64,000 nt of DNA from Geosiphon pyriformis uo1 (lineage: Eukaryota > Fungi > Glomeromycota), in contig JAAOMT010000436.1 of NCBI GenBank assembly GCA_016748015.1, positions 52,703 to 116,702 on the forward strand, read 5' to 3'. Position numbers and translations under genes: made by a program. This document shows positions 3,565 to 49,008 of the stretch, piece by piece. Numbering within the stretch: the first letter of the stretch is position 1; the number at the start of each line of letters is the position of its first letter. Below the pieces are notes generated by a model. The model was not told where the DNA came from, did no database searches, and saw nothing but the letters and a program-made list of their open reading frames with translations.

Positions 3565-6115
3565 GCCTTTCTAGTAAGCTATCTTTAAATTTCTATTCTT
3601 ATTTCTAGATTTTTTACCAGGCTATTCTTGACATTAAATACTTAGCATTTAATTTTTTTAATTAATTAGTAAACAACAAAAAAATAAAATAAACAAAAAT
3701 AAAAAAAAAATAAAAAAAAAAATAAAAAAAAAATAAAAAATTAGTATTTTGTCAATAGCTATGATCAAGAGCAATTGGTCCAATATAGTTAAGTGTTAGA
3801 TACTATTAACATAAAGTGTTGATAAAATAGAATTAATTAATATTTTTAATCAAATGATAATAATATAGATTTGAATAATAAGTAGATATTTTATTGATAT
3901 TAATGTAATTTTACTTTAAGTTATAAAAAACTATTTTTTGAAGAAAAAATATTGGAGATTTAGAATTTTAATAAATTCTGCCTCTTTTTTGCTTCTAATA
4001 TTTTCACTATATATACATAATTCTTGTTATATAAGATTACATATTTTTTGAACAGTGTATTTTAATTTTTCTAACAGTATATATATTGCTAAATAATATG
4101 TCATAATTTTCTAACAATATGTTCATTGTTAAGTAGTATGTTATAATTTATTAATAATACACTCTTTGCTAAGCAGTATGTCATAATTTACTAATAATAT
4201 GCATATTGCTAAGCAATATGTCATAATTTTCTAATATTGTACTTACTTATTAAGTATTATTCTCTTATTGGTTTATTTTTCTATTTGTTTTTCTTACTTT
4301 TTTTTTGTACTCTTTTCTATGAATAACATTATCTTCTCTTTTAATATTGAACTCTATCAAAATTTTCATTTCAAATTAAGTCTTTTACTTTTTTTTCTAA
4401 TACTGTTTGTTTAATTTTGTTTCTTATTTTTTTACATTAAAAGTTGTTTATTTTTTTTCATTGGTTAATGATTATTGTTTTTATTTTTTGATATGGTAGT
4501 ATTTCTGAATAGTTTTGAAATATAATATATAGTTAGTAAATTGTTTTGATGTATAGTATAGAATTTGTCTTCTTTTTAATAAAATTTCTGAATATTTAGT
4601 TTTTGTCCTAATTAATAATAAAAATATATACTGGAAGTTGTTTTATTTATAGCTTCCAGTTTTTTTTAGTTAATTTTTCTGTTGAAACAATTATTGGTAT
4701 TTTTTTAAAAGTGTTCTTTACTTTTTCTATAATTTTATTTGACCAGTGTTTTGTTTAGTTTTGTAATTATTAATATGAAATAGTTTTTGCTTTTTTCTTC
4801 TTTTTAGTGTTTTGATAGCAAATTGTTTGGTGGTTAATAATAATTTTTATGTCTAACTATTGTTAATTTATAGCTTGAAACAATTATTGTGTTATTATGT
4901 AAATATGATTTGGAATTTTTATCTTTTTACTATTGCTTTTTTCACATATGTTGTTTTTTTATATACTATTTTAATCAATTAATTTGACATGTTTGTTTTG
5001 ATAACTATAATTGATTTCAGATTTCATAAAATCTCATCTGGTTTAAATAATATTTGTTGTATTTCTAATTGTAAAATATTATTAATAGATAATGATGTTA
5101 TATTGTGATATAGTTTTAGTTAATTACTATATATTGTTTTAGTTAAAATTTTGTTGTTCTATCTTAATTTATAAGTTTTGTTTTTTAAAATTTTTTCAAT
5201 GTAAATTAATCTGTTTTATTTGGGGTCAAATCTTCTACTTCATTGTTTTTTTACTTTAATATAATATAAGAGTACTTTGTCTCCAATCTTAAATTTGATT
5301 GGGTTATCTAATAACTAGTTATTATATTATTTTTTTTGTTTTGCTTGTGGCTTTTGTATATTATCAGCNNNNNNNNNNNNNNNNNNNNGTTTTTGCTTTT
5401 TTCTTCTTTTTAGTGTTTTGATAACAAATTGTTTGGTAGTTAATAATAATTTTTATGTCTAATTGTTGTTAATTTATAGCTTGAAACAATTGTTGTATTA
5501 TTGTGTAAATATGATTTGGAATTTTTATCTTTTTACTATTGCTTTTTTCACATATGTTGTTTTTTTATATACTATTTTAATCAATTAATTTGACATGTTT
5601 GTTTTGATAACTATAATTGATTTCAGATTTCATAAAATCTCATCTGGTTTAAATAATATTTGTTGTATTTCTAATTGTAAAATATTATTAATAGATAATG
5701 ATGCTATATTGTGATATAGTTTTAGTTAATTACTATATATTGTTTTAGTTAAAATTTTGTTGTTCCATCTTAATTTATAAGTTCTGTTTCTTAAAATTTT
5801 TTCAATGTAAATTAATCTGTTTTATTTGGGGTCAAATTTTCTACTCTATTGTTTTTTTACTTTAATATAATATAAGAGTACTTTGTCTCCAATCTTGAAT
5901 TTGATTGGGTTATCTAATAACTAGTTATTATATTATTTTTTTTGTTTTGCTTGTGGCTTTTGTATATTATCAGCTGTTTTTTGCCTTTTGTTTTTTAAAG
6001 TTTCTATTAAGTCATATGTTCTTTTTAGTAAAGTTTCTTAGAAGTTAACTTTTGTTATTGGTTCAACTGGATATATATTAATCTCTATTTTGATTAAAAA
6101 TATTGCTGTTTAACT
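3565..6115 (-). mobile_element. Highly decayed relic E of an A/C/D-related Ty3/gypsy element: partial 3' LTR (~3565-4328), PPT, ORF3 and integrase C-terminus
   Basis: 3741-3830 matches LTR text at ~19590 (TTAGTATT.TGTCAATAGC.ATGATCAAGAGC). The LTR ends ...GAATAACA at 4328 followed by the PPT. 5200-6110 resembles integrase 20980-21270. Confidence 0.8.
4060..4245. repeat. ~40-bp tandem repeat (~4-5 copies) in the U3 region of the relic LTR
   Basis: Recurring ATTGCTAAGCA.TATGTCATAATTT.CTAA units. Confidence 0.75.
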
Positions 6116-10852: not shown

Positions 10853-12475
10853 TGTTACTAGAGGTTTTTGGTCTCTTTTCTTAAATGTTGTTGATGCCTG
10901 TTTGCTGTGAATTCACGTTTTCTGGATGTGGTTAAACCTCCAGTACTGAATTTATCTTCAGATTATCTCCTATAATTTGAACTGCTGGGCTTATAAGTGG
11001 AATGGCCAATTCCATGCCAGTTACTTTATATAGTTATATTGTAGTAAACATCAACTCTTTCCCAGGAATTGCTCATCTGAAAGCTCACTAAATGTGTAGT
11101 TACTTTGCTGTGAAAGTCAACTTTTCTACAGGAATCTCGTCTGTAGGCTACCTTAATGATTATAATAAGAAAATAAAAAGAAAATAAAAAAAATGTAAAA
11201 GAAATAGAATTCTGTCAAGAGAAATGTTTTCAATTCAGGCCTGGAGTCACTAACAGTTTATTGAAATTGGTAGCTAATCAATTTCAGAATGTTAGTTGGG
11301 TTTTGAAAATTTTTCAAGTACAATAATTAAAAAATTTGGTTTTTCAAATTTGTTTGATATTTATTTCTCTTTTGTGTGTGTAGAAATAATTCTAAGTGAT
11401 AAATCTAAAATAAGATACATTTTTTCAAAGAGAGAACCTCTTCTTTTATACAACTTGTTGTAACACTATTCTATGAACTTGAACTTTGCTCTTTTCTACA
11501 ATTTTGTTAAACTAAAGATACATTTTGGCAAACTACAAGTTATTTCTGCGAACTATTAGATATTTTGGTGAACTATCAATTATTTCAGCGAATTTCTTCA
11601 AATTTCGACAAACTTTTTGAATGTTACATAGTTCGAGGTATTGCATGATTGATCATCACAATTAGGTTACATTTGTGTTATGTACAAATTGGATTATTAA
11701 TTAAATGATAATTTTGGACATTTTGCTAATATACTAAGTGATAATTTGAAACGATAATATATATTAATTAATGATAGGAATTATAAAGATAATTTCATGC
11801 TAAATAATATCTCTAATTTTGTCTGAAAATTGTTGAAATTTCAGTTCTGTGAGCTTTTCAATGTATTGAATCTTCAAAGACTGTAAAATTGGGTTTTGTA
11901 GGGCGTTTTCACAGGTGTAAAATAGGTCATAAAGTGCAAGAGCAGCTCTGAGCCTGTAGTGACTGTTTGTTGATCCAGCTGTTGTCTTGAATTTATTGTG
12001 GAGTTGTTTCTGAATAGCTTTTTTTGAAAGATTTGCTGTTGTAAATTCCAGTTTTTGTTTGTAGAGTGTTTTTCCAATGTGGAAATATCTATAGATTGGA
12101 GGATATTCAGTGTTTTTCTCATTGAGACACAGTTGAAGTCTTTGTTGAATTGTAGCATTTGGTGGAATACTAATCGGAATGAGCATTAAGTTTTCTCTTA
12201 AAGCAAGCTTTAAAAGTTCTGGCAGGTGAATTCCAGAATAACTTCTTGTGTTTTTCTTATATGGGTGATATTTTCGTGAATTTGGGGCTAAATTTGTGAC
12301 TACTTTTGTTTAGGTATAATTAATGTGGTTTCCAGTAACAGTAATGAATAATTCGGGTATTGTTTTTAAAGCTAACATTAGTTTTTGGAATAATTGTTAA
12401 ATGTTTTGAGGAATAGTCATTATAAGAGATTTGAAATAAAGAAAATTATTTTTGGTGTATGGGTTTTTATGTTAT

Positions 12476-12478: not shown

Positions 12479-12533
<55 letters not shown>

Positions 12534-12535
12534 TT

Positions 12536-12575
<40 letters not shown>

Positions 12576-12580
12576 CTTTC
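12479..12580 (+). repeat. ~100-nt poly(T) tract at the B/A junction
   Basis: Seen directly. Corresponds to the shorter T-rich tract of LTR A at 41783-41819. Confidence 0.95.
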
Positions 12581-12953
12581 CTTGTGTTGTTTTGTTGTTG
12601 TATACTAATTGATTAAGGATTAGAAGTGCTGAGTTATTGATGTCATGGATAGCCTGATAAAAGACCCAAAAATAAGGGTAGAATTTTATATATTATCAGA
12701 TAGCTTACTAGAAGGGCACAACTGCCAGACTAAATCTGGCCTCCATGCTAAGAAAAAAATTGAACAGAATTGCAATTCCAAAAACTATTACAAATACAGT
12801 CGAATTTCTGTTCATTATACAAAGAACTTCACCAAAACCTTTCAGATTGCATAAGACCTTCAGATTACCAATATTAACAGAAATCAATAGCTTTTGAGCA
12901 CCAAGTTACAGGTTTGTTATTTATTCTCACACCAGAAATAATCACTTGTAACA
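12480..12953 (+). repeat. Truncated 5' LTR of A
   Basis: Ends CACTTGTAACA, as does the 3' LTR at 42190. Confidence 0.9.
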
Positions 12954-12955
12954 TT

Positions 12956-12970
12956 TGGTGCTTCCTGTGA
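12956..12970 (+). promoter_or_regulatory. PBS of A (consensus from D/C: TGGTGCTCCCTGTGAG)
   Basis: TGG lies 2 nt after the LTR. Complementary to a tRNA ending ...GGAGCACCA (elongator Met or Ile-UAU are candidates; unverified). Confidence 0.85.
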
Positions 12971-13015
12971 AGTATAATCCTACAGAAAACCAGCATCAAC
13001 AAACACCATCTAAAA

Positions 13016-16000
13016 GTGGCAGAATCAGAAAACATAGGAGCAAACCATTTAGGATTCACAAAATCCTTATTTTAACACTATTGTCAACACTTGGAATTAA
13101 ACCACAATCATACATCCGCCAAATCAGCCTTTAATTTCTACATTAATGAAAAAATTTCCTCTTTGTTAGGAACACCAGTGAATACTAAAGCAGCCAGAAA
13201 AACTTTCTACAGAGAATTAATTCAAAATACCAACCTGCCAACAAATTACAATTTTGCCTCCATCATTACTAAAATCAACAAAAAAATTGAACATTACATC
13301 CAACAAAGATATTTAATTACTTACACCAGTAAAGGCAAAGAAAAACTACAAACACCAGTGGTAACACCCAAAAAGATACAACCACCCACTTGGAAAAAAA
13401 CAAGAGTTGAATTACCAACTGCCCTATTCTATTACTACACACTGGAAAGTGCCATTAATATAACATCAGCAAATGTATCCATATCAAACGCGACATCAAC
13501 ATTTAGATAATTCCTATTCCAAAGTAAACAAAAAAAACAGAGTTATTAGAACCATATGGCGAATATTTTGAAGGATTTAAATTGCAATTACTGACACCAT
13601 CAGGAATTTGATCACTGCTGCCTCAACCAGACTTTGGAACCACTACCCCATGGGAACTATCTGAAGAAGAAAAGGAAAAAGAATCAAAAGATCAAGAATT
13701 TACTTACCAAAACCCAATCACTGAAAACCTGGAAGTTAAAACCCCAAATCTTTAAACTCAGCAAAATCTAAATCTAGAAAATTCGGAAATAGAAACTCCA
13801 AATTATTAAAGGCAGAACAATCTAAACCCTGAATTAATTAATTAGCAAAACTTACCTTCAGTAATTGTCATCAATCAACCACCAATTAATCCAATAGCCG
13901 AACCCATATAGCAGCCACTTCAATTATCATCCCAACAACCAGTACCACAACAACCACTTCAACAGCCCCAGCAACCTATAGTACCAATGGCCTATGCACC
14001 AATTGCCAAATTAAAAAAATTCACCAGTTAAGAGGATGATGCTCAAGCTTGGTTGAATGATGTCATTAAAGCAATCATGGCAAACAATTGGAATGATGAC
14101 AGAGCTCTTCAGGCAATCCCATATTTCCTTCAAGATATTGTGGATTTGTGGTACCAAAGCTTAGCCACAAAACCTCAAACATTTGACGCATTTAAGCAGG
14201 AGTTCCTAAAATATTTCAGTAATAATAACAGTATTAACCATTTGGTAAATACTTTTACTACCATCAAACAAGAGAACACTGAAGCCATTACCACGTACTT
14301 GGGACAATTCCATAGATGCCTGCGCCAGATCCAAGCTATTAATGCTGATTATTTCACAGTGGCCCAAATTTTAAATCAGTTTATCAGAGGCTTATACAGT
14401 AGTATTCTCCAGCGCATACGTCCACTACACCCAGCAAATTTACAAGCAGCCATCACTAATGCCAAAAATTTTGAAGCAGCTGAACTCGAAGCTAACCATG
14501 CCCAAGCCATTAATCTAGTAATAAATAGATTATCTGAATTGGATTCTAAATTGAAACAATTCAGTGATTCTATCAATCAAAAATTAGAGGGATACTTAGC
14601 TGACAATTGAGCAATCTATTAACCACCACAATGATACAACAATCAGGGAAACTTTAGTCATGTCCAAAATCAGCCACATCCATCATTTTCAGCCAATCAA
14701 CAGTGGCAACAAGAAATGCATGTTTGCTGCTATTGTGGTAAACAAGAACACATACAAGTTGATTGCCACCAGCATTTAAATAACCAATGATCAGGAAATC
14801 AATATTGAAATCCCAATTGCTGGTTCCCAGTTCTGAGTTCTTAGCAAAATCAAGAACAATACCAATACTTACCTCATTATGTACCAATGACGCAGCAATC
14901 AATTTATCAATCTCTGATATATCAAGCTCAAATTTATCAACCACAGCCACAAGTAATTTATCAACAACCACAGCCACCAATAATCTATTAACCCCAACAA
15001 ATTCAAACACTGCCCCAAAACTTATCACCCAATGGAACACAAAGACCGAGAATGGCTCAACAGAGCTAGAAATTGGCAATGGTAGTTTATCAGCCAATCC
15101 CCAGTTCTTCACAGCAACCATCTGGATTATGCCAGTAGAATTTGGGTACTGATCAACCCCAGAACCTGAATTTCCAAAACTATTTAAGTCTCCTGATTAC
15201 CCCAGAAGACACCTCAGCCAATAACCTGAAATCTGCCCAAAAACAACTACTCACCAGTAATATCCCACCTGCTACTATCACCAAAGATAAGTCCTTGACT
15301 GCTATCTTCCCATTCGAATTTAAGGAAACAATTACAACGCTATTATTTAGTGGAGCTGCTCTTGAAGCCAAACCAATCACCATGATGTACACGGATGCCA
15401 AAGTTGATGAACAATCTATCAAATTGATCTTTGACAGTGGTTCAGCAGGTAGCATTATCACATGACAACTCATGGACCAATTAGGTCACCAAGTTGATCA
15501 CACTGTCAGTGCCAGAATCTTTACAGCCGATGGAGTGACCAAAATGTCTATCGGTGAGATAGATGAATTCCCATTTGAAGTCAATGGCATCATCACTCTT
15601 ATCAAAGTCTTGGTGATAAAAGCCACCCAATACCAAGCTTTAGTTGGTAATAACTGGCTGTCCAAAACCAATGCCGTTCTGGACTGGATAATGCAAGAGC
15701 TTTAACTAAGCATCAATGGTCAACACACACATGTGCCAGCCACATGTGGCCACTTCAAAGTTCTGTCAAGAGAGGAACCATTAATAAAGCTGAAAGAAGA
15801 AGAAAAGAAGTCTATCTGGGAAGCTTACCAAGTCTTGTGAGCCAACAATGACCACAATGAATTGCCACCCATACTCTTATGGAATGACAAAGGAAAGAGA
15901 AAAGAAGAAGAAAAACTTACCTGGAGAACAAACCAAGAATTGTGGAGTGATAACGGCCAAAGTGAACCAGCCACTGAATAAAGTTGGGAAGAAAAGGGGA

Positions 16001-19000
16001 AAGGAAAAGAACAGGAAGAGGAACCAAAACAAACCACCTCCTCCACTCATATTCTATATGTAACACTATCTCAAAATGCTTATCGTCGACCCAAACTTGT
16101 ATGTGTCAATTGTGGCAAGAAACTGTCAACAATAGACACATGCTGTAGTAAGAACGAAGAATAGATGACAGTAACCAAGTACTACTGTTGCCCATGCATC
16201 CTTGAATGTGATAGATGACAGCCAAAAATAGGAAAATGGGATGGTACTTTGTGTTTAGCTTGTGGAGATACCCTCTTAGATAAAGGGATGTAAAAAGACA
16301 TTCCTGGAAGAGGAGGAGCATGTGATGAGACATGCCAATACACTATCCTAATCAACAACTGAGTATGAAAGGGAACTCCCATCAACGATGTCTGGAAACA
16401 AGCATTAAGATGCCTAGAAAGATATTCACATGACGAAGATAAGATCTAGAGAATGGCATATGCTATGTCAGAAGGCGCTACAACAGAGGAGCTGAGAGAA
16501 ATTAAAAACAACCTACTATCCCTACCTGAGCCCAAATATATCCAAATCTTTGATGTTTTTGGCAACATCGAAGACGAATTAAAGGAATTTCATGAGCACT
16601 TCCAGCAACTAGCACTCACAAGAGAAGAACAAGAAGAGCACTTAGCACAGCTAAACACCTGGCTATGTGACCACTGTTTAATTCCATATGACTTTCAATA
16701 TTGTAATAAGTATGACCTCATTTACAATCCACCACCATGCATGATCTACACGATCCCTAAAGAGGAAGAACCAATCAGCAATTGTACATCAGAATCAGAA
16801 TTGCTGATCAATTATGATTTAAACTCCGACAACAATGACAACAACAACGGTTTAAGCTCCATTCATAATGGCAATAACAATAACAATGATTCCAACTCTG
16901 ATCCAAACTCTGATACAAACTACAAACAATATATTGCACTACCAAATATCTCTAAGAAGCAGGAATTGAAATGGTATAGTGACAATGGGGAAGGTATTAT
17001 GTCAGAATACATGCATGATACTGATGCAGGGTTTGATCTGAGATATCCAGAAAAAGATGCTATCAAATTGAAGCCAAATGCATGAATATGCATTGATCTG
17101 AGAATAGCTCTAGAGATCCCAGCAACAATCATGGTTCTGTTAGCATTTAGAAGTAGTTTAGCAAAAAAAGAAATTAATATTAGAGGAGGAATAGTGGATG
17201 CAGAATATACAGAAAATATCAGTGCCATGCTACAAAATGACTCAGAAAAGGCTTACACTATTGAGCCAAATGAAAAGATAGCACAGGCAATATTTCTGCC
17301 ACTAGTCAAAATAGCTAACTTAATGTCAGTAAGAACAAGAGAAAAATTAGAGATAACAGCAAGAGGGATACAAGGATTTGGATTAATGAGTAAAATAGAT
17401 GTACCAGTTAATATGGTGGAGAAAAAAATTGTTGGTCAAGAAATTTCCATTCCACCATATAGCCAGTACATGCTAGCAATAGAAAAAAAGGAAAAAGAAC
17501 AGCATCAGATTTTTGAAGCAAAACTGACTCTTTGTGAATCAGGAGAGATTAGACTCATCAATCTCCACATACCAGCCAAAAATTACAGCCACATCAAAAT
17601 TTTTATCTACAACAACACAAAAAATGTCATAGTGATACCAGCCAGAACCACCATAAGATACTTAAACACTGAAATAGAGGATCAACCACCAAACCCCATT
17701 CTAGACTTTCCACAGCTTTGTAAATATGTCGACATTACATCACAAACAATCTATGGACGAGATAAATGTTATTTGCTCTAACTAAAACAATTAGAACAAA
17801 TGAACATAAGAAATCTGGACCCACTACAATGTATGCAGCTCAAGATGTTACTCAACAATTTCAATGACATCTTTGCCAGTGAAAACAAATTTGGCAGAAC
17901 TGACATCATCTAACATCAAATCAAGACTGGAGATGCAATGCCAATCAAACAGTAAGCATACAGAGTACCACCAGCCAGCCATAAAATCATCCATCAAGAG
18001 ATCAACCAAATGCTTGACAATGAGTTAATTCAGCTATCAATGAGTCCATGGTTGTCACCAGTAGTATTTGTCCATAAGAAGAATGGAAAGATCTGATTTT
18101 GTGTAGACTACAGAAAACTAAATAGTATAATTTGTGGAGACAACTATCCAACTCCACAGATACAAGAACTATTCGATGCTTTTGGTAGAAACAAATAGTT
18201 CTCAATGTTAGACTTAGATAGTGGTTACTGACAAGTAGCCATGGATCCAGCCAACAAAGAAAAAATGGCATTCACCACAAAAGAGAGAAACTTTGAGTTT
18301 GAAGTTATGCCATTTGGCTTAACCAACGCACCAGCCACTTTCCAATAGCTAATGAAAATTGTTTATACTGGCTTATTGTGGAAATTAGTAGTTATATACT
18401 TGGACAACACCAATGTATTCTCAAAAACATTTGATGATCATCTTCATTATCTTTAACAAGTGTTTGAAAGACTAAGAAGAATAGAACTAAAGTTAAATGC
18501 AACAAAGTGCTTCTTTGGCAAGACAGAACTCAAATTCTTGGAACACATAGTCAGCAAAAATAACATCAAAACGGATCCAGAGAAAATAGAGATAGTAAAA
18601 AACTTTCCAGTACTGACCAATATAACAGAACTAAAATCATTCTTGGGATTTGCCAGTTATTATTGACATTTTATCAAGAACTTTTCCAAGATAGCGCAGC
18701 CACTCAACCAACTGCAAACCAAGAATACAAAATATGAATAGACAGAAAGTCAACAAAAAGCTTTTGATATTCTGAAAAGAAAGCTCATTTAAGCTCCAGT
18801 ACTGATCTATCCAGATTACAGCAAACCATTCATCATTACTACCAATGCATCCGGCCAAGCATTAGGAGCAGTACTATCTCAGAGAGGACCAGATGACAGA
18901 GAACATCCAATAGCATATGCCAGCAGAGGTTTAACACCAGCCAAAAAGAACTATGGAACACCAGAACAAGAACACTTAGCGATATACTGAGCAGTCATGA

Positions 19001-19163
19001 AATGAAAAGAATACTTGAGCCAGAAGTTTAAAGTATACACAGATCACAAAGAATTAACATCACTCCAAAAACAAGAATTTGGAGATAGAAGACAGTCAAG
19101 ATAGAAAATGGCACTTGCACCATATAATTATACTATACATTATAAAAAGAGAAAAAACAATGA
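13016..19163 (+). pseudogene. gag-pol: Element A polyprotein: N-domain, Gag capsid (from MAYAPIAK, 13987), CCHC knuckle, aspartic protease, Cys-rich domain, dUTPase, RT, RNase H (last codons at 39112-39148)
   Basis: ORFs 14053, 15142, 15472, 16453, 17131 and 18460 are all in the same frame. Motifs [31 protein letters not shown][N], TNASGQALGAVL, YTDHK. Confidence 0.92.
17010..17400 (+). pseudogene. dut: dUTPase domain of A (also D ~33830-34220, B ~27810-28180, C ~52270-52655)
   Basis: Five trimeric dUTPase motifs across the copies: AGFDL, ASRSSLA, GGIIDAGYTG, KIAQ, RGIQGFGSTG. Confidence 0.92.
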
Positions 19164-20053: not shown

Positions 20054-20713
20054 TTAATATTGAGCTCTGTCAAAATCCAACTCGTTTAATTCCTCCTCTT
20101 GAAGTATTTCCTGGATTTTGTTTTCGAGAATTACTTGTGTTATTTGGGTCTGTAATTCTTCAAATTGAGTATTGGTGATCTTTTCCAATTGATTATTGGT
20201 AACCATATCCATTGCTTTGTTGAGTAATATTTCTGGTCTATTCTGAAATGCTGTATGTATTCAGTATATAGCTCGGGCCTATGTGGATAAGTTGTTCTTT
20301 CCCACAAAATATTCTAATTGTTGTAGTATTTTTCTGTCAAATAATTGCTTTGTTTTATTTGTATATAGATTCTGGATATTTACGTGTTGTCCCAAGTAAA
20401 AATAACAATAGTTTTGTGGAAATTGTTGTATTCACCAATTCCAAGTTTCTTTAGTCAACTCTTGATATAGTGACTCTTTTGTCAACTCTCTTATTGCTAA
20501 TTTTACTTTTACAATGATTTTGTCCACAGTATTTTCAGTTTTCTTCTGTGTTCTGGATTGTAATGTCTTTCTAGTATCTTGATATCAAATGGTTTGTTGA
20601 TTGATTGTAATCTCCACTTTCTGGTGTTGAATCAATTGAAAGAGTTGTTGTGCTAGTGAGTGAATGTTGTTTGTAACTTCTATTTTTCTGATATTTTCTG
20701 TCATGTTTACCAT
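20054..20713 (-). pseudogene. ORF3 of D (220 codons, unknown function)
   Basis: ATG at 20713 (MVNMTENIRKIEVTNNIHSLAQQLF...); colinear with 40616-41275. Confidence 0.85.
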
Positions 20714-23114: not shown

Positions 23115-23753
23115 AAATGTAAAAAAAATAGAATTCTGTTAAGAGAAATGTTTTCTATTCAGGCCTGGAATCACTAACAGTTTACTAAAATTGGTAGCTA
23201 ATCAATTTCAAAATGTTAGTTGGGTTTTAAGGATTTTCCAAGTGCAATAATTAAAGAATTTGGTTTTTTGAATTATTTGATATTTATTTCTTTTTGTGTA
23301 TATAGAAACAGTTCTAAGAGGTAAATCTAAAAGTAAGATACATTTTCTTAAAGAAAGAAGCTCTTCTTTTATACAACTTGTCATAACACTATTTTATGAA
23401 CTTGAACTTTGCTCTTTTCTACAATTTCGCCGAACTAAAGATACATTTTGGCAAACTACAAGTTATTTCTGTAAACTATTAGATATTTCGGTGAATTATC
23501 AATTATTTTGGCAAATTTCTACAAATTTTGGCAAACTTTTGAATGTTACATATTTCGGGGTATTGCATAATTGATTATCGTATTTAGGTTACATTTGTGT
23601 TATGTACAAATTGGGTTATTAATTAAATGATAATTTTGGACATTTTGTTAATGTAATAAGTGATAATTTGAAACGATAATATATGCTAATTAATGATAAG
23701 ATTTATAAGGGTAATTTCATGCTAAACAATATCTCTAATTTCGTCTAGTAATA
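22772..23753 (-). repeat. 3' LTR of B
   Basis: Matches 31608-32589 and 10853-11825. Confidence 0.93.
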
Positions 23754-24441
23754 TAACCTCCTCCTCAAGACTGAGCTCCATTGAAGTCCAAGTACTGTCT
23801 GTAATTTCTAGATAATAATCCAAAATTATTGAAGAAATTTGGTCTGAAAATTGTTAAAATTTCAGTTTTGTGAGCTTTCCAATGTATTGAATCTTCAAAG
23901 GCTGTAAAATTGGGTTTTGTAAAACATTTTCACAGGTATGGAATAGGTCATAAAGTCTAAGAGCAGCTCTTAGTTTATAATGACTGTTTGTAGGTCCAGC
24001 TGTTGTCTTGAATTCATTGTAGAATTGTTTCTAAATAGCTTCTTTTGTGAGATTTGCTGCTATAAGCTCTTATTTTTGTTCATAAAGTGTTTTTTCAATG
24101 TAAAAATATCTATATATTGGAGTATAGTTGTAGTTTTCTTCATTAAAACACAGTTGAAGTTTTTGTTAAATAGTAGCATTTGGTGGAATACTAATAAGAG
24201 TGAGCATTAAGTTTTCTCTTAAAGCAAGCTTTAAAAGTTCTGGCAGGTGAATTCCAGAATAATTTCTTGTATTTTTCTTATACGGGTGATATTTTTGTGC
24301 ATTTGGGGCTAAATTTGTAACTACTTTTGTTTGGGTATAATTAATGTGGTTTCCAGTAACAGTAATGGATAATTCGAGTATTGTTTTTAAAGCTAACATT
24401 AGTTTTTGAGATAATTGTTGAATGTTTTAAGGAATAGTTAT
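23722..24441 (-). pseudogene. ORF3 of B (240 codons), reading through the PPT into U3
   Basis: Start mutated to ATA; ends ...SLEEEVILLDEIRDIV*. Confidence 0.8.
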
Positions 24442-25962: not shown

Positions 25963-28900
25963 TTAATCTTGCCTCATTCTTGAAAGACAATTAACATTGG
26001 TGTGAAGTTTTCCTGGTTTGTAATGTACAATGTATTAGTAGTTGGCTAAAAATCTTGTCTATTGGGTTTGTTTGGCATTCAGCTGAGTGTTTTTGTTTTG
26101 AAGCCATTTGAGTCCAATATTATCAGTGATAATATCAAATTCTTTAGGCCTAAAATAAAGATTGAAGTGATATAAGGCCCAAATTACGGCTGCTGTTTCT
26201 AGTTCTGTGGCAAAGTAGTTTTTTTCAACTGGTTTTAATGTTCTATTAGCATAAGCAATTACTTGCTCATTTTTGTTGTCATCTAATTGTGATAAAATGG
26301 CACCAAAGGCAGTGTAAGAAGTGTTTGTAGCTAGTCAAAATCAGTTATTGAAGTCTGGGTAGGTGAGAATTGGAGCTGTTGTCAGCTTTTTCTTGAGAAT
26401 TTCAAAAGCTTTTTGGTGTTCTTCCATCCATTTGTATTCGACGTTTTTAGTAGTGAGCTGGTTAAGGGGTTTTGCAATTTCTGAGAATTTTTTAATAAAT
26501 TTTCAGTAATAAGATGCTAATCCAATAAATCCTCTTAATTCTGTGGTATTTTGTGGAGTCTTGAAGTTTTTGACAATGCTGATTTTTCCAGGGTCTGGTT
26601 TAATTCCATCTTTGCTAACAATGTGACCAAGAAAGGCCAAACTCATTTTTCTGAAGTAGTATTTTTTGATGTTCAGTTTCAATCCTGCTTTCTGTAATCA
26701 TTGAAAAACTTTGCACAGGTGTTTTAAGTGTAATTCAAAAGATGATGAATAAACATTAGTATCATCAAGATAGACAACTACTGATTTCCAAAGGAGGCCT
26801 TTGTAAACAATGTTCATAAGTCTTTAGAATGTTGCTGGTGTATTGCATAATCCGAAAGACATTACGTTAAACTCGTAGTTTCCTTCTTGAGTAGTGAATG
26901 CTGTTTTGGGGCAATCTTTGGGATCCATGGCAACTTGCCAGTATTCACTCTCTAAATCTAATGTTGAAAAGTATTTGGACTTTTCAAAAGCATCTAGCAT
27001 GTCATCAATTCAGGGAAGAGGGTAAGCATCTCCAATGGTGACACTATTGAGTTGTCAATAATCAACACAAAATCATATCTTTCCATTTTTTTTTTTAACT
27101 AAGACCACAGGTGAAGCCCATGGATTCATTGATGGTTGAATAAGCCCATTGTTGAGCATCCGTTGTACTTCTTCGTGAATAAATTGGTGACTTTCTAGAG
27201 CAACTTGGTAGACTTGCTGTTGCTTTGGTTTGGTATCTTCTGTATAGATTTGGTGTTGAACCAAATTGGTTCTTCCTAAGTCATTGTTATTTTTGGCAAA
27301 GATATCAGCAAATTCTGCAATTAGCTCTTTGAGCTGGCTCTGTTGTTGTGGTTCAAGTTGTCCCATGTTGATTTGAGATAGTTTTTTCATAACAACATGG
27401 TAGTTTTCAGAGCTGGAGTTTGGGTTGATTTTTGGTAGTCAATGTCCAATAATTTCAGAGAAATCAGAAACTGTTTGGGGTAATTTTTGTTGAAAGATAT
27501 TATTGTGAATAACTCCAATTTCTAAGTTATTTAATAAAACTATGAGATAATTGTTGGGATTGTAAAAAGTAACTTGAACTTTCTTTGTTTCTTCTGGAAT
27601 ATAAATGTTTGGGATCAAGATATTATGTTCCAAGCAGACTTGTTTATTGGACTCAAAAATTTGTCATGTGGTTGTTGGCTTTTCACAAGTGTAAATTTCA
27701 GGGTGTTCTTCAAAAGGTGAAATAGTAATTGGTTGTGGAAGTTGTAAAATCTGGTAAGATTCACTTTGTTCATTAAGAGCTATGTTTACTGGAACTGTGA
27801 ATCATCCAGTTAAACCAAAACCATTGGTTCCTTTTTCACTTTTTCCCAATTGTTCTCTTTGATTGACTAATTGTAAACCCGAAATGTTGATTAAGGGTAA
27901 ATAAATAGCTTGAGTAATTTTTTCAGCATGTTCAATCTAAAAAAGTTTATCAGTTTTATTTTGTAATATGATTGTAATGTCTCCTGTATATCCAGCATCT
28001 ATGATTCCTCCTCTAACATTGATTCCTTTGCTTGCCAATAATGATTGTGAAGTGATTTGGACCATTGCTCCTGGTGGGATTTCAAGAGCAATTTTGAGAT
28101 TGATTTTGGTAAGAGAATTTGGTTGAAAAACCAAAGTGTTTTTTCCTGGATATCGTAGATTGTATCCAGCATCAATTTCATGTGCTTTTTCCAGTTTTAT
28201 TTCTTGTCCATTGTTGTTGAAGTATTTGAGTTGTGAAGCAGACTGATTTTTAATGAGATAGATGGGTGTTGTTTCAATTTTGTATTCATTACTTTTGCTG
28301 GGCAATGGAATGCTAAGAGCATAGCATTTAGAACACTATTGTTCGTCACATGGCATTATACACTCCTCACATAATTTAATGTTCATTTGCTCTAATCATT
28401 GAATTTGAGCTTCTTGGGTTGGGTAGGTGTGACTTGTAATTTGGTAATATACTTCTACTTCCTCTTCATAATTGAATTCAGCTAATTCCATAGTGTATTC
28501 AATGTATTCTGCTTCTTTCATTTGATGAACATCTTCTTTGGTAGCTTCATTAACTAATGCCATTGCTAGGTCAAAAATCATCTCAGCATCATGGAAATAG
28601 TGATAAAGTTTGTTGAAAGCATCATTGTATGCTGCATCAAAAGGTGTTTCTCTTTTGACTTTTTCTGAAATTGATAAAGCATATTGGCAGGTTTAATCAC
28701 AAACTCCTCCTCTCATTGCTACATCAATCCAATTGCATTCTTCTGGTAGCATATCTCCACAAGTCAAACAAGGGATGTTGTTCCATTTTTCGTTTTTTTT
28801 TATTAGATGGCCCCATTATTTTCTGTGGCAAGCCTTGCAGTAATAACAAGTATGATTTTCATATTTTTTTTCAGGTGAAATGCAGACTCTCATTGAAGAG

Positions 28901-31562
28901 AGTTTCTTGTGGCAGTCCTTGCATTTGAGTGGAATGTAAGGGTGTCATTTCTTTGGTTCTGGTTTAGAATATGGGATGTTCTATTCAGAGGTTTCTGGTT
29001 CCTCTGAATATGAGTTTGTTGCAAAATATGTTTGCTCAGTTTCTTCAGCCCAGTTAGATGTTGATTCAAGTGCCATAAATGTTTTGACTACAGGCTTTTC
29101 TTTTTCTTCTTTAAATTCAAAAACAGAGGTTTTTTCTGATTGTTTGTTGAATGTACCACAAGTAATGGGTACTCGGACATGTTGTCCTTGATAGAAGAGT
29201 TGTAATTCTTGGGTTTCCCAGCTTAATTTTGCATTGGCTTTTTGAAGCCAATCATTTCCGACAAGGGCTTGATACTGGGGTGCGTCTATTATAAGAACTT
29301 TGACTGGAATGGTGATTTCATCAAGAGTGAATAGAAAATTGTCAATTTCTCTTACTGGAGTCTTTTTCATGTCATCAGCAGTAACAATTACTGTTTGAGC
29401 TGATCGGTCAACATTTCTCTTTAACTGTTGCATTAACTGGTAGGTAATGATGCTTCCGGCAGATCCACTGTTTAGGATCAAGTGAATTGCCTTTCCTTTG
29501 ACTTCTGCTTCAGTGTACATAGCAGTGATTGCTTTTTGTTTGTTGGCGGCTGCATTGCTAAGCAGGAATGATGACTCATTTGCTTTGAACTCAAAAGGGA
29601 ATATATCTGAAAGGTTGGCATTTTCAGCAATTCTGGCTGGTGGGATTGTGATAGGAATATAGGAAGGATTTGTTGTCGTGCTACAGCTCTACCTTCTGAG
29701 AGTGCAGTATGGTAAAAATCCTGTTCTTCAGGTATTGTAAGATAGTTAGGTTGAGTATAATAATGAGTGGGTTTTGGCTAAGCTGGATTTCAGGGAACTA
29801 ATTGGTTATTTGGGTTGATTCTGTTGTTGTTTGTTGCGAATTAGTTTTGTGGTGCAAATTGGTTTTGTTGAACCAATCTTTGAGCAAGTACTTGGTAATG
29901 TTGAATGGGTTGTCAATACTGTTGTTGCATTGGCTGTGAAGCAGGTTGATAGTAGTCAGTTTGATATTGCAGTCTTGGTGGATAGTAAGCTGATGATAGT
30001 GGTAGTTGATAATAAAATTGTTGTGGTGAAGGGTAATGTTGATTACTCTTGTTTTGTTGGTCTTGTTGTAGCTTTCTACAATCTCTTTTCCAGTGGCCAG
30101 GGATTTCACAGTAATGGCAATTCTGAGGCTGGTTATTAGAGGATGATACAAAATTGTTTTGATTCTGTCTTTGGGGTGGTTAATATCTTTGGAGTTGCTG
30201 TTGTTGTTGGTTGGTGAAATAGTTTTCGACTTTCTTTGTGAGTTGGTTAATTTTCTCTTTAGCTGCTGAGCTGGTCTCTCCAATGGCTAAGTTCACAAGT
30301 TTTGTATAATTGGCTTCTTCCATGGCCATTTCATATCTCTTTGCATGCTGAATGGCAGAGTTTAAATCTTCTGGGGCATGTGGACAAACCTTTTTAATCA
30401 GTTTATTCTTTAAACCAATGATAAATTGATCCAAAATTTGAGCATTGGAATAATAATCATTAGTTTCAAGTTGGTAAATTTGTCTGAGAAGTTTGTTGAA
30501 TTTCCCAATATAAGTCATGACAGATTCGGAGAGTTCTTGTTTGATATTGCAAAAATGATTTTGAAGTGTGATTGAGGTGTTGTTATTGGTGAATTGTTCT
30601 AAGAAGGCAGTTTTGAAAGCTGTCCAGTCATTAAAAGGGGTGGTCAAGTTTTCGAACCATTCGCCTGCTATTCCTTTGAGAAAGTAGAGAATTGTTTTTA
30701 ACATTCTGGCAGCATTCTATCTATTTGTATCTCCAGCTTTAGTAACTTGGTCGAGCCATTCTTGGAGACTGGTCTTAATATCTTCTCCATTAAATTCAGG
30801 GATTTTTGCAATGTATGCTGTTATTTTGTCTTCTTCATTTTCACTGTTTATTGATTCTTCTTCAGATATTTCAGAGTCGTTTTCTTTATTCGCTCTTGTC
30901 TCAGAGTGTTCACTTTGATTTTCAGCTAGAAAATCAAGGAGATTGGAACTAGTTTAAAGGGGTTCTTGTTGTCTGGTGGGACTTCTGGGTGATGTAAAAT
31001 CTTCTAGTCTTGCAAATCAATTTAAGAGTAAATTAGGTGTTTGTGTTTGTGCTTGTGCAAGTAAAGCTGGAAAAGGTGTGATAGTAAGTAGAAGTTTTGA
31101 ACTGGTTCCTTGTTCAGGTGTTTGTAAGTGTTTGGCAGTTGTTTTTGGTAGTATTGAAGTATTTGGGGTGGTTTTTGAGTATTGCTTCAATTTTTGTTTG
31201 TCTTTGTTGCTTGTTTCTGTCTCTGATTCAAAATCAATAGAGTATTGAAACTGCACTGGATATGTTTCTTTACAGTACTTGATAATGTTAAAATTAAGTT
31301 CTTGAAAGTAAGTGGCAAGTGTTTCACTGTTAAGGTCTTCAGTTTCCAACTGTGAATAGTGTACTAAATTATTGTAAAGATTGCTTCTAACTTCTGAGAT
31401 ATTGTAATTTCCAAAAAAATAATTGTTGATGCAGTTTTTAATATATTGGTATACTGATTTCTTGACAACTTCAATTCCGTCTAGAATGTTGAATCTTTGT
31501 TTGCAGTGGGTGTAAATTGACTGGTAATACTCTAGAGTTGTTGCATCTAGTATGGTCACCAC
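25963..31562 (-). pseudogene. gag-pol: Polyprotein of B (N-domain, Gag, CCHC, PR, Cys-rich, dUTPase, RT, RH)
   Basis: CHYCEIPGHWKRDC, LILNSGSAGS, GGIIDAGYTGD, PWASPVVLV, VYLDD; ends CLSRMRQD*. Confidence 0.92.
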
Positions 31563-31607
31563 TTTGAAGTTGTTTTTGCTGTGTTGTTTCTGTGGGAGAG
31601 CACCAAA

Positions 31608-32589
31608 TGTTACTGGAGGTTTTTGGTCTCTTTTTAGCTCTTGTATGTTTGTTGTAATGCTGTTAATTCACAATTATGGGAAGTGTTTAAACCTCCGATA
31701 ACTGAATTTATCTTCAAATTATCTCCTATAATTTGAACTGCTGGGCTTATAAGTGGAATGGCCAATTCTATGCCAGTTGCTTTGTATAGTTACATTGTAG
31801 TAAACATCAACTCTTTCCCAGGAATTGCTCATCTGGAAGCTCACTAAAATGTGTAGTTACTTTGCTGTGAAAGTCAACTCTTCTACAGGAATCTTGTCTG
31901 TAGACTACCCTAATGATTATAATAAGAAAATAAAAGAAAGAAAATAAAAAAAATGTAAAAGAAATAGAATTCTGTCAAGGGAAACGTTTTCTATCCAGGC
32001 CTGGAGTCACTAACAGTTTACTGAAATTGGTAGCTAATTAATTTTAAAACATTAGTTGGGTTTTGAGGATTTTCCAAGTGCAATAATTAAAGAATTTGGT
32101 TTTTCAAATTATTTAATATTTATTTCTTTTTGTGTGTATAGGAACAGTTCTAAGAGGTAAATCTAAAAGTAAGATACATTTTCTTGAAGAGAAAAGCTCT
32201 TTTTTTATACAACTTGTTGTAACACTATTTTATGAACTTGAACTTTACTCTTTTCTACAATTTTGCCGAACTAAAGATACATTTCAGTGAACTACAAGTT
32301 ATTTCTGCAAACTATTAGATATTTTGGTGAACTATCAATTATTTCGGCAAATTTCTACAAATTTTGGCGAACTTTTGAATATTACATATTTCAGGGTATT
32401 GCATGATTGATCATCGTACTTAGGTTACAATTGTGTTATGTACAAATTGGGTTATTAATTAAATTATAATTTCGGACATTTTACTAATGTAATAAGTGAT
32501 AATTTGAAATGATAATATATGCTAATTAATGATAAAATTTATAAAGATAATTTCATGTCAAACAATATCTCTTATTTTGTCTGGTAACA
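31608..32589 (-). repeat. 5' LTR of B
   Basis: TGTTAC...GTAACA termini; adjacent PBS. Confidence 0.95.
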
Positions 32590-39107: not shown

Positions 39108-39209
39108 ATGGAAATGCCGACAGTTTATCGTGAATAAGACAAATCTAAGAACATTTCAACCCAAAAATATAACAAAACCAAAACAATACTCACAAAAATA
39201 TAACAAAAA

Positions 39210-40586
39210 ATGAATACACAAAAATATCAACAACTTCAACATTATATAGATACTCAACAGTTCAAGGAGAAATTATCTCAACTGGAACAAAAGAAGATCA
39301 AACAACAATCCAAATATTTTATCACCCACCAAAATATACTTTATCAAAAAAATAGAAAAAATTCAAATCAGCCAACCAGAGTAATTACAGAACCAGAAAA
39401 GGAAACAATACTGTTCAATATGCACTCAGATCTAACTGCAGGACATTTTTATAAAGAAGCAACTATGGAAAGAACCAGAAAGAGATACTATTGGCCATCA
39501 ATGTATCCAGACATCATACAATATGTACAAAATTGTGATGCTTGTCAAAAAAGAGGAGGAACAAGACCCAGCAAATCATTAAGACCAATCAAAGTGGGAC
39601 AACCATTTGACTGCATTGGAATCGATTTAGTCGGACCATTGACAATTACCAGCAGAGGCAACAGATATATTGCAGTAGTCATAAACTACCTTATAAAATG
39701 GCCAGAAGCAAAAGCAATTCAAAGAGCAGATGCAGAATCCATTGCCGAATTTGTCCATCAAGATTTGATTTGTCGACATAGATGTTCAAAAGAATTATTA
39801 TCAGACCAAGGAACCTATTTTGTGAATAAAACATTAGCAGAACTAAGCCAAAGATTCGGAATTAAGAGACCACTATCATCACCATACCATCCACAAACCA
39901 ATAGATTAGTTGAAAGATTTAATAGAACATTATGTGAAGCAATAGTGAAACTCAGCCAAGAAAACCAAGACAAATGGGATTTGTTTATATCATCTATACT
40001 ATTGGCTTATCAGACAATGAAGCAAGACACTACATAAGCAACACCATTTGAATTAGTATACAGTAGAACAGCAACACTACCAGTCGAGATAGAAGTTAAC
40101 ACTTATTCAACAGAACCAATAACTGTAGACAATTTTTAGGAAACATTACTAAGAAGAACATATGATTTGATGGAAACTCTAGAAAACAAGTGACAAAGAG
40201 CAGCTGATAACATTAAAAAGGCACAAGAAAAACAAAAAGAAAGGCATGATAACCAACTACCAGACAAACCAGTTGAATTCAAGATTGGAGACAAAGTATT
40301 TTTACATCATACTAAAGCAGAAAAACAATGGAGTGGGAAATTTGACCCCAAATAGAATGGACCATTTTACATAGAAAAAATTCTAAGAAATGGAGCTTAC
40401 AAATTAAGACTGGACAACAGAATCTTAGCCAAAGCAGCACATGGTGATTGACTGAAACCATATCACCAGATAGCATTAGCATCTACCAATAACATTTCAC
40501 AACTGGGAGTACAAAGAATACTAGTTCAACCAGATGAGATTCCACAAGACTGGGAACCAATCATAATCATTAGACCAAACACATAA
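39210..40586 (+). pseudogene. Integrase of A, separate 459-codon ORF with in-frame stops after 40037
   Basis: MHSDLTAGH...CDAC; D(GIDLV), D(SDQG), E(VERF); FKIGDKV...GPF...GAYKL; no chromodomain seen. Confidence 0.93.
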
Positions 40587-40615
40587 AATTGAACAACAAA
40601 AGAGTATATAAAGAC

Positions 40616-41275
40616 ATGGTCAACACGACAAAAGATACCAGAAAAATGAAAATAACCAACAACATTCACTCACTAGCACAACAACTCTTTCAATTGATCC
40701 AACACCAAGAAATGGAAATTACAATCAATCAACAAACCATTTGTTACAAAAATATGGCAAAGATACTACAACACAAAGCACAGAAAAGACTTGAAAATGT
40801 TGTTAACAAAATCATAACCAAGATAAAATTGGCCATAAATAAACAACAAATAGTCAGATTATACCAAAACCTTACCAGAGAAACTTAGACTTAGTGGATG
40901 CAACAATTTCCAAAAAACTATTGTTATTTCTACTTGGGACAATACATAAATATCCAGAATTTGTACACCAACAAAACGAAATGGTTATTTGACACAACAA
41001 TACTGAGACAACTAGAACAATTTATGGAAAATAACAATCTAACCACACAAGCTTGAGCCATCTACTGGCTATATATGGAATTTCAGGATCGACCAGAAAT
41101 TTTACTCAATACAGCCATGGATACAATTACGAGTAATCAATTGGGAAAAATGACCAATGCCCAATTTGAAGAACTACAAACTAAAATAACACAAATTATA
41201 CTTGAAAAAGAAGTTCAAGAAATAATTCAAGAAGGGAAATTAAAGAAATTAGATTTCGACAGAGCTCAATATTAA
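40616..41275 (+). pseudogene. ORF3 of A (220 codons, unknown function)
   Basis: One frame with three internal stops (TAG, TAG, TGA); its stop overlaps the PPT. Confidence 0.87.
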
Positions 41276-41288
41276 AAGAAGAGAATAA

Positions 41289-42190
41289 TGTTATTCATAG
41301 AATATAAAAAATATAGTATTATTAGTCAGTAGATATTAGCCAATCAGATGAAGATGTAGTAAATATGGAATTCCAGGATTCCTCTCATAGGAATTGCAGG
41401 ATTTCAGGAATTTCAGGATTCTCTGACGAGAAATCGCAGGATTCCAGAATTCCAGGATTCCTCTCATTAGGAATCACAGGATTTCAGGAATTCCAGGATT
41501 TCTGTTGCAAGGAATTGAGAAATTGAGGAATCTCAATTATGTATATATAGCAGTAAGATTAGAAGCTGAAAAGACAGATCTCAGAAGTTTAGATTTCTTT
41601 AAGCAATCTTCTACATCACAAATATCAAATAAATAATTATTTACTATCTCAAATTTCTTCCCAACTATCAACATTTCTTGTTGATAATAGCACATATTTA
41701 ACCATACTGGAACAATAGCTCTTGATCATGGCTATTAATGGGATACAAATCAAAATTACCTTGGCTTATTTTCTTTATTTCATTTTTTTTTTTCTTTTTT
41801 TTCTTTTTTTTTCTTTTCTTGTGTTGTTTTGTTGTTGTATACTAATTGATTAAGGATTAGAAGTGCTGAGTTATTAATGTCACGAATAGTCTGGTAAAAG
41901 ACCCAGAAATAAGGATAGAATTTTATATATTATCAGATAGCTTACCAGAAGGGCATGACTACCAGACTAAATCTGGCCTCCACGCTGAGAAAGAAATTTA
42001 ATGGAATTGTGATTCTGAAGACTATTACAAATATAGTTGAATCTCTGTCCATTATACAAAAAACTCCACCAAAATCCTTCAGATTGTATAAGACTTTCAG
42101 ATTACCAACATTAACAGAAATCAATAGCTTTTGAGCACTAAGTTATGGGTTTGTTATTTATTCTTACACCAGAAATAATCACTTGTAACA
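41289..42190 (+). repeat. 3' LTR of A (902 bp); PPT at 41274-41288
   Basis: TGTTA...GTAACA termini; GGAATTCC/GGATTCC array at 41366-41530. Confidence 0.93.
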
Positions 42191-48338: not shown

Positions 48339-49008
48339 TTAATATTGAGCTCTGTCAAAATCTCCTAAATCTTCTAACTCTAATTCTCTGTCTTTGAGTA
48401 TTTCTTGAACTTTTTTTTCGAGAATTACTTGGGTTATTTTGTTCTGTAATTTTTCAAATTGGGTGTTGGTTATTTTTCCCATTTGGTTAACTATAATGAA
48501 GTCCAATTCCAGATTAAGTAAGATTTCTGGTCTGTCTTGGAATTCTGTATGTAGCTGATAGATAGCTCTTGCTTATGTAGTCAAATTGTTTTTTCCCACA
48601 AATTGTTCTAGTTGTTACAATATTGTTGTGTTAAATAATCATTTTGTTTTGTCTGTGTATAAGTTCTGAATATTTAAGTGTTATCCCAAGTGGAAATAAC
48701 AAAAGTTTTTTGGAAATTCATGTATTCACTATTTCCAAGTTTCTTTGGTCAACTTTTAATATATGGTGACACTTATTGGTTCTTCTAATGCTAATTTTAT
48801 TTTCAGAACCATTTTATTGATAGTGTTTTCTGTTTTCTTTTGACTTTTGTATTTGGGTATTTTTCTGGTATTTCAGTATCAAATAGTTTGTTTGATTGAT
48901 AGTAATTTCTATATTCTGTTGTTGAATCAGTTGGAAAAGTTGTTGTGCTAGTGAGTGGATGTTGTCAGTAATTTTCATTTTTCTGAAGTCTTCCATCATA
49001 TTTACCAT
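48339..49008 (-). pseudogene. ORF3 of C
   Basis: MVNMMEDFRKMKITDNIHSLAQQLFQ...FDRAQY*. Confidence 0.85.

What the first reader, a model, noticed from the sequence alone, without database searches (positions are those of the whole stretch)
40616..41275. Conserved unknown ORF3 between integrase and the 3' LTR in both families
Seen in A, D, C, B, the partial B copy and relic E. Families A and B align end to end by eye: ITNNIHSLAQQLF/IPQNIQQLFQKLM; FPKNYCYFYLGQ/YPPIYRYFHIGK; A(R)AIYWLYMEF/RAALALYDLF; QLGKMTNAQFEELQTKI/YIGKLTELKFQQFSDQI. I see no signal peptide or TM segment, so it is not Env. In B it runs through the PPT into U3, the position nef occupies in HIV. From memory it resembles a small helical domain expanded in Glomeromycota hypothetical proteins (unverified). 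Inference: a trans-activator, anti-silencing factor or DNA-binding accessory protein kept by selection.
Basis: partly seen in the sequence, partly recalled or inferred. Interest (0 to 1): 0.85.

Follow-up and report, generated by a model that had tools for sequence, protein, structure and literature searches.

The report
Unnamed accessory gene of fungal retrotransposons
Jumping genes in what is likely a Geosiphon-type soil fungus carry, after their integrase gene, an extra small gene that is kept by selection, has no membrane anchor and matches no known protein family; it likely binds the element's own DNA to control its activity, but that role is untested.

Summary
40616-41275 is a 209-219 codon ORF (three in-frame stops in this copy) between integrase and the polypurine tract of a decayed, nested Ty3/Gypsy element. 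Related ORFs sit at the same place in D, C, B, partial B and relic E. Families A and B are homologous end to end (HHalign 87%, E 4e-6; 21% identity, against 54% for integrase). dN/dS between A-type subfamilies is 0.20-0.24, like integrase. There is no hydrophobic segment, so it is not Env. All named close relatives are Geosiphon pyriformis gene models, which points to the host. An unrelated metagenome contig shows the same layout with an intact 230-aa ORF3, so the gene is an old part of this lineage. No Pfam, PHROG or PDB family matches. A DUF1016_N/ParB-like helix-turn-helix reading rests on weak hints and failed or barely passed my controls. The nef comparison is poor: the U3 overlap is about 10 codons and only in B-type elements. 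Extra: integrase is a separate ORF in five of five elements checked. The scan noted similar soluble ORF3s on other genomes; homology untested. Verdict: new protein family in a known kind of gene; function inferred.

The parts
40616..41275 (+). ORF3 of element A (pseudogenised copy, 3 in-frame stops); start shared with family B is ATG 40646
39210..40586 (+). Integrase of element A, a separate ORF with its own ATG after the RNase H stop (TAA 39146-39148); several stops in this copy
   Evidence: Pfam Integrase_H2C2 4e-20 and rve 8e-8; junction
40605..40612 (+). TATA-like word 34-41 nt before ATG 40646, present in A, D, C and E; a possible internal promoter, but the DNA is AT-rich and this is untested
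41274..41285 (+). Polypurine tract of A, overlapping the ORF3 stop codon
41289..42190 (+). 3' LTR of A (TG...CA); U3 holds short repeated words (GGAATTCC, GGATTCC)
12526..19161 (+). 5' part of element A (partial 5' LTR to 12953, PBS, gag, protease, dUTPase, RT), cut off from the 3' part by the nested elements D and B
20057..20713 (-). ORF3 of element D (A-type; 4 stops); D spans about 39107 to 19163
48342..49008 (-). ORF3 of element C (A-type; frameshift and stops); C spans about 57476 to 47459 inside a LINE
23722..24441 (-). ORF3 of element B (239 codons, 5 stops), last 10 codons inside the 3' LTR; B spans about 32590 to 22771 inside D
11800..12420 (-). ORF3 of the partial B copy (2 stops; about 99 nt deleted across the PPT)
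4344..5540 (-). ORF3 relic of element E, a further subfamily; its 5' part is duplicated across the N gap at 5369-5388

Best explanation
ORF3 is a soluble, mostly helical accessory protein that this Ty3/Gypsy lineage has kept under purifying selection, and it likely binds the element's own DNA (likely the repeats in U3) to switch on or protect its transcription. Shown: position, sense, homology across subfamilies, selection, lack of a membrane segment, same layout in an unrelated metagenome contig. Predicted: a small N-terminal helix-strand-strand module, a basic linker, and a compact helical core (about residues 80-200) with conserved Tyr/Gly/Asn/Arg positions. Inferred: expression from a subgenomic RNA or by re-initiation (it is out of frame with integrase, and integrase is itself a separate ORF), nucleic-acid binding by the core, and an LTR target. 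The copies in this window are dead; the protein would act from intact copies elsewhere in the genome.
For: dN/dS A-D 0.24 (0.15-0.37), A-C 0.23, D-C 0.20; integrase 0.25-0.33; non-coding A-type LTR control 0.55-0.83; shifted frames 0.44-2.0. The core is the most constrained part (0.18). At least six subfamilies among Geosiphon gene models plus three unnamed metagenome proteins share the pattern. L001 has RT-RH, integrase, intact ORF3, PPT, LTR. Highest 19-residue hydropathy 0.27-1.25 in 10 of 10 proteins; pI above 8.4 in 8 of 10. AlphaFold model mean pLDDT 78, 84-97 over residues 61-200. ORF3 diverges far faster than integrase (21-30% against 54-56%), and A and B have different U3 repeats, as expected of a family-specific regulator and its site. 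Weak hints of a DNA-binding helix-turn-helix: ESM Atlas DUF1016_N and HTH_ParB clusters at 0.87-0.89, Pfam DUF1016_N E 0.12 in 1 of 22 members, three ParB-type domains among 50 VIA rows at Z 3.2-3.4.
Against: No direct evidence of binding or expression. Every family hint is under its threshold: Pfam 12.9 bits against a cut-off of 32.8; HHalign to a 10-sequence DUF1016_N alignment P 0.089, and 4 of 60 column shuffles reached the core's score; to a 7-sequence ParB-HTH alignment 33 of 60 shuffles reached it. The best VIA rows are unrelated helical bundles (Z 4.6, rmsd 3.0, 64 aligned). Atlas scores under 0.9 are leads only. B against partial B gives 0.43, no lower than a shifted frame (0.42) or the B LTR control (0.37), and the N-terminal 80 codons of A-D give 0.35 against 0.27 in a shifted frame, so selection is shown for the A-type core only. 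L001's U3 has no GC-containing repeat like A's. Two of 10 proteins are not basic (pI 6.9 and 5.8).
Confidence: 0.4

Rival explanations
1. ORF3 is a partner of the stand-alone integrase: because integrase is not part of the Pol polyprotein, ORF3 would load it into the particle, carry the cDNA complex into the nucleus or steer integration.
For: A TAA follows RNase H and integrase has its own ATG in A, D, B and L001, with the stop also in C. ORF3 always lies directly behind integrase. No chromodomain was reported on these integrases, only an SH3-like end.
Against: ORF3 is 21-30% identical between families whose integrases are 54-56% identical, which is fast for a fixed partner. No interaction was tested.
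Confidence: 0.25
2. ORF3 counters host silencing or limits copy number by binding RNA or host proteins rather than LTR DNA.
For: Rapid divergence under purifying selection. The copies decay mostly by transitions (38 of 39 differences between A's LTRs), which fits methylation or similar host control (inference). Family-specific anti-silencing proteins exist in DNA transposons (VANC; PMC6719617, passages read).
Against: No similarity to a known suppressor or nuclease; no conserved acidic or metal-binding set in the family alignment.
Confidence: 0.2
3. ORF3 is a passenger: a captured host fragment or a reading frame that only looks conserved because of DNA elements near the PPT.
For: All window copies are broken; the last codons follow a DNA motif that is read in two frames.
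Against: dN/dS 0.20-0.24 in the right frame only; protein-level homology across lineages at 21-37% identity; intact ORF in L001, whose integrase has a stop; no host gene outside elements among the hits inspected.
Confidence: 0.05
4. ORF3 is an Env-like or fusogenic protein for spread between nuclei, hyphae or hosts.
For: It holds the env position and sense.
Against: No hydrophobic stretch (maximum 1.25), 0-2 cysteines, a soluble helical model, no credible Env family hit (PRRSV_Env E 0.53 in 1 of 22 members).
Confidence: 0.03

Closest known systems
Sense additional ORFs between pol and the 3' LTR (aORF-3S; Vicient and Casacuberta 2020, PMC7264820, parts 1-2 of 3 read)
   Same: Position, sense, presence in most copies, conservation comparable to pol.
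   Different: The sense ORFs described there are env-like, some with transmembrane segments, and are from plants and insects. This one is soluble, fungal, and no sequence link was found.
Non-Env ORF3s of bdelloid rotifer LTR elements (GDSL esterase, DEDDy exonuclease; PMC5408684, abstract and outline seen)
   Same: Third ORF in dUTPase-bearing LTR elements that is not an envelope.
   Different: Those are recognisable enzymes; this protein has no enzyme signature and no family hit.
Foamy virus Tas (abstract starts in search listing: PMC4929722, PMC8670036, PMC13220597)
   Same: Proposed way of working: a small accessory protein that binds and activates the element's LTR and an internal promoter. 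Its place before the 3' LTR and the separate expression of Pol are recalled, not read.
   Different: No sequence or fold similarity was found; binding and an internal promoter are untested here.
VANC of VANDAL transposons (PMC6719617, passages read)
   Same: Family-specific accessory protein paired with short repeats in its own element.
   Different: DNA transposon of Arabidopsis; no homology found; anti-silencing untested here.
DUF1016_N (PF17761) and ParB-type helix-turn-helix (PF17762)
   Same: Similar spacing of an aromatic-x-x-Ile-Gly helix and a later Asn...Arg-aromatic-Tyr helix in one HHalign run; helical core of like size.
   Different: Below all cut-offs; no PD-(D/E)XK nuclease or ParB CTPase domain attached; extra N-terminal module.

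Membership tests
Ty3/Gypsy LTR retrotransposon (host element) | LTRs, PBS, PPT and order gag-protease-RT-RNase H-integrase | tested here: met
   Pfam Ty3_capsid, Retrotrans_gag, aspartyl protease, dUTPase, Integrase_H2C2, rve; map. RT and RNase H were placed by position, by tblastn with L001 and by recalled motifs, not by a Pfam scan.
Sense additional ORF (aORF-3S) | Lies between pol and the 3' LTR, same sense | tested here: met
Sense additional ORF (aORF-3S) | Present in most copies and conserved like pol | tested here: met
   6 of 6 window elements that keep a 3' end carry it; dN/dS 0.20-0.24 for A-type pairs; the B pair is uninformative
Sense additional ORF (aORF-3S) | Transcribed, spliced or from its own promoter | not testable with these tools
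   no RNA holder listed
Env / env-like protein | Transmembrane anchor | tested here: not met
   highest 19-residue Kyte-Doolittle mean 0.27-1.25 in 10 of 10 proteins; the usual mark of about 1.6 is recalled
Env / env-like protein | Signal peptide | tested here: inconclusive
   hydropathy only, no dedicated predictor; the N-terminus is an amphipathic helix in the model
Nef-like accessory gene | Long overlap with U3 (recalled) | tested here: not met
   about 10 codons in B and L001, none in A
DUF1016_N (PF17761) | Score over Pfam's cut-off | tested here: not met
   best 12.9 bits against 32.8, 1 of 22 members; 1 of 17
DUF1016_N (PF17761) | Remote homology by profile-profile comparison | tested here: inconclusive
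   P 0.089, probability 0.6%; 4 of 60 shuffles reach the core's score, on another stretch; both alignments shallow
ParB-type helix-turn-helix | Fold match | tested here: inconclusive
   1vz0 Z 3.4 rmsd 5.2 over 96; 1r71 Z 3.2 rmsd 4.3 over 89; 6s6h Z 3.2 rmsd 3.1 over 59; none above unrelated rows
ParB-type helix-turn-helix | Profile similarity to PF17762 members | tested here: inconclusive
   33 of 60 shuffles reach the score against a 7-sequence alignment; no PF17762 hit
Tas- or VANC-like regulator | Binds its own element and raises its transcription or lowers its methylation | not testable with these tools
   needs a binding or reporter assay

The most novel reading that the evidence does not exclude
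An undescribed fungal Ty3/Gypsy lineage is built like a complex retrovirus, with three separately expressed units (gag-pol without integrase, integrase, ORF3), and its ORF3 is a family-specific DNA-binding trans-activator of a new fold or of remote bacterial DUF1016/ParB ancestry that co-evolves with the repeats in its own U3.
Probability: 0.25. Interest if true: 0.75.

Novelty: new variant of a known kind. Interest (0 to 1): 0.5.

Why it matters
Extra ORFs before the 3' LTR are common and mostly unexplained (PMC7264820). This one comes with natural intact copies, several subfamilies paired with different LTRs, and a confident model, so the question 'what do non-Env accessory ORFs do' can be tested by cross-family binding assays. 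Geosiphonaceae genomes underwent a striking LTR expansion (PMC11952901, passage read); an element-encoded regulator could be part of the reason. It also reassigns well over a hundred 'hypothetical proteins' of Geosiphon to retrotransposons (95, 120 listed). A separate integrase ORF is unusual for Ty3/Gypsy elements as far as I recall.

Tried and rejected
Pfam on window copies and relatives: nothing over a cut-off; Glypican E 3.5e-4 on the read-through copy is under its cut-off and recurs in only 1 of 22 members. PHROGs: best E 0.006, scattered. PDB by sequence: importin-5 E 0.007, weaker (0.32) with the more diverse profile, rejected. Fold searches: first model pLDDT 43, uninformative; second model no Z of 5 or more among 48,161 chains, no Foldseek E under 0.001 in PDB or BFVD; this does not show that the fold is new. 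ESM Atlas: no usable hit for A; for the B core the top three are unnamed bacterial clusters at 0.91-0.94, not followed up. Phage tblastn: none. Viral, metagenome and prokaryote contig scans: none; one locus. P0316 (E 2e-4, repeat protein) was dropped as a chance hit; chimeric gene models (P0259, P0255, P0268 and others) were left out of alignment A7. Homodimer prediction: no verdict. Sequencing runs: no RNA holder listed. No whole genome is held, so copies were not counted at DNA level. I recall similar small helical proteins in other mycorrhizal fungi, but no call showed them. Literature: searches listed no paper describing this ORF; the Geosiphon genome paper and supplements were not seen and may bear on novelty.

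Full report
Observation. The window is a nest of decayed retroelements. Element A (+ strand) starts at a partial 5' LTR (12526-12953), is interrupted near 19162 by element D (- strand), which itself holds element B, and resumes near 39108 with the end of RNase H, integrase (39210-40586), ORF3 (40616-41275), a purine tract (41274-41285) and a 3' LTR (41289-42190). Pfam finds gag, protease, dUTPase and integrase domains in Ty3/Gypsy order. The focal ORF3 has stops at codons 91, 93 and 147. Related frames lie at the same place in D, C, B, partial B and relic E. LTR pairs differ by 8-11%, nearly all transitions, so these copies are old and dead.

A and B are homologous. HHalign of a 25-sequence A alignment and a 52-sequence B alignment gives probability 87.1, E 4e-6, over 187 columns from the first residue. 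The BLAST score of intact A against intact B is 115; the best of 2000 shuffles is 90. Identity is 21%, against 54% for the integrases.

Selection. Between A-type subfamilies dN/dS is 0.24 (0.15-0.37), 0.23 and 0.20. Integrase gives 0.25-0.33, gag A-C 0.10, non-coding A-type LTRs 0.55-0.83, and the shifted frames of ORF3 0.44-2.0. These values include neutral decay after insertion, so they are upper estimates. The core (codons 81-209) gives 0.18. Against this, the N-terminal 80 codons (0.35; shifted frame 0.27) and the B pair (0.43; shifted frame 0.42; B LTR control 0.37) are not informative.

Relatives. With the A copy, 95 of 157 candidates passed and all 95 are named hypothetical proteins of Geosiphon pyriformis. 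With the B copy, 199 of 279 passed; all 120 listed are from the same species. I infer that the window comes from this fungus or a close relative. Near full-length models number 3 of 95 for A and 70 of 120 for B; gene models can splice around stops, so this is an upper count. A full HMMER scan of 1.84 billion representatives gave 116 proteins at E up to 0.001, adding more subfamilies. Of 10 divergent ones looked up, 6 are G. pyriformis and 4 are unnamed metagenome proteins, one of which (P0316) I drop as chance. The last search, with the diverse alignment, gave 52 of 7996 candidates: 51 G. pyriformis and P0256. Integrase sequence is fused into 38 of 355 of these gene models, which places further subfamilies behind integrase. 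The contig of P0256 (L001, 3713 bp) reads RT, RNase H, integrase, an intact 230-aa ORF3, PPT and LTR; its integrase is 56% identical to A and B and its ORF3 28-30%. ORF3 is thus an old, fixed part of the lineage.

Not Env, not nef. The most hydrophobic 19-residue window scores 0.27-1.25 in 10 of 10 proteins, with 0-2 cysteines. B and L001 run about 10 codons into U3; A stops at the PPT. A short DNA motif before the PPT is shared but read in different frames in A and in B/L001, so the tail follows the DNA element and says little about function.

Structure. The shallow first model was poor (pLDDT 43). With 17 diverse sequences the model of P0256 reached mean pLDDT 78 and pTM 0.66: helix 7-20, strands 25-29 and 34-38, a loose basic linker, then helices 54-66, 82-93, 100-119, 126-141, 146-160, short turns and 185-221. 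Conserved across ten subfamily representatives are a Tyr-x-Tyr-aromatic-x-x-Gly helix, a Lys-x-Asn turn, an Ala-x-x-Arg-Leu helix ending in Phe, and Asn-x-x-Gly-Lys/Arg-x-Thr. No solved or viral structure matches well.

The DNA-binding lead. Hints towards DUF1016_N and ParB-type helix-turn-helix domains: Atlas clusters at 0.87-0.89 (ranks 14, 21, 26 of 30), Pfam E 0.12 in 1 of 22 members, an in-register HHalign at P 0.089, and three ParB-type chains at Z 3.2-3.4 among 50 rows. Direct controls did not confirm them: 4 of 60 shuffles matched the DUF1016_N score and 33 of 60 the ParB score. DUF1016 itself is only suggested to bind nucleic acid (PMC3424549, one table passage read). I treat this as a lead, not a membership.

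How it likely works. ORF3 is out of frame with integrase and 30 nt behind its stop in A, so it needs its own route to translation. So does integrase: a TAA follows RNase H in A, D, C, B and L001, and an ATG opens integrase shortly after in A, D, B and L001. A TATA-like word precedes ORF3 in A, D, C and E, in AT-rich DNA. A-type U3 holds repeated words: 6 of 6 window copies of GGAATTCC and 15 of 18 of GGATTCC lie there; B's U3 has other repeats. A small, mostly basic, fast-diverging but selected protein beside family-specific U3 repeats fits best a regulator that binds its own LTR, in the manner of foamy virus Tas (abstract starts) or VANC (PMC6719617 passages). I give this 0.4. An adaptor for the free integrase (0.25) and an RNA- or protein-level anti-silencing factor (0.2) are close rivals. 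None was tested directly.

Comparison and novelty. Sense ORFs between pol and the 3' LTR are a known kind (PMC7264820, parts 1-2 read; PMC5408684 abstract). This protein family matched no Pfam, PHROG or PDB entry, and seven literature searches listed no description of it; subscription papers and supplements were not seen. The scan's notes e1-9576172 and e1-7552150 describe similar soluble ORF3s on other genomes; sequence look-ups found no look-alikes, so I cannot say whether they are the same family. Verdict: real and selected, a new protein family within a known kind of gene, mechanism inferred. Interest 0.5.

Noticed in passing
window 39146-39212 (A), about 22190-22120 (D), 50450-50410 (C), 26000-25915 (B); L001 772-801: A TAA follows RNase H in five of five elements and integrase starts from its own ATG (other frame in A, D, B; same frame in L001; not clear in C). 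Integrase is a stand-alone ORF in this lineage.
   Followed up: partly
window 41259-41273; 23760-23780; L001 3088-3104: A DNA motif (GAGCTCAR) just before the PPT is conserved across families but translated in two different frames; likely a cis element.
   Followed up: partly
window 41368-41530 and the other A-type LTRs: U3 carries tandem words GGAATTCC/GGATTCC, found almost only there; they resemble heat-shock elements (recalled), but TTCNNGAA is not confined to them (8 of 41).
   Followed up: partly
window 12526-42190: Three-level nest: B inside D inside A; C sits inside a LINE (about 58217-57490 and 47467-46868).
   Followed up: yes
window 16450-17781, 27451-28569 and equivalents in C and D: Both families carry a dUTPase and a Cys-rich unannotated stretch between protease and RT.
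   Followed up: no
window 13076-13510 and 31017-31667: Long open stretches before the gag core in A and B with no Pfam hit over cut-off; the gag N-terminus or a further ORF.
   Followed up: no
window 4783-5974: A 586-nt, 97% identical duplication around the N gap at 5369-5388; may be an assembly artefact.
   Followed up: no
window 962-3490: Non-retroelement ORFs: a weak restriction-endonuclease-like hit (HSDR_N E 2.6e-4, under cut-off) followed by two unannotated ORFs, across an N gap at 1751-1770; may be a Crinkler-like gene (recalled resemblance).
   Followed up: no
window 11815-11825: The partial B copy lacks about 99 nt spanning the end of ORF3, the PPT and the LTR start, in frame.
   Followed up: partly
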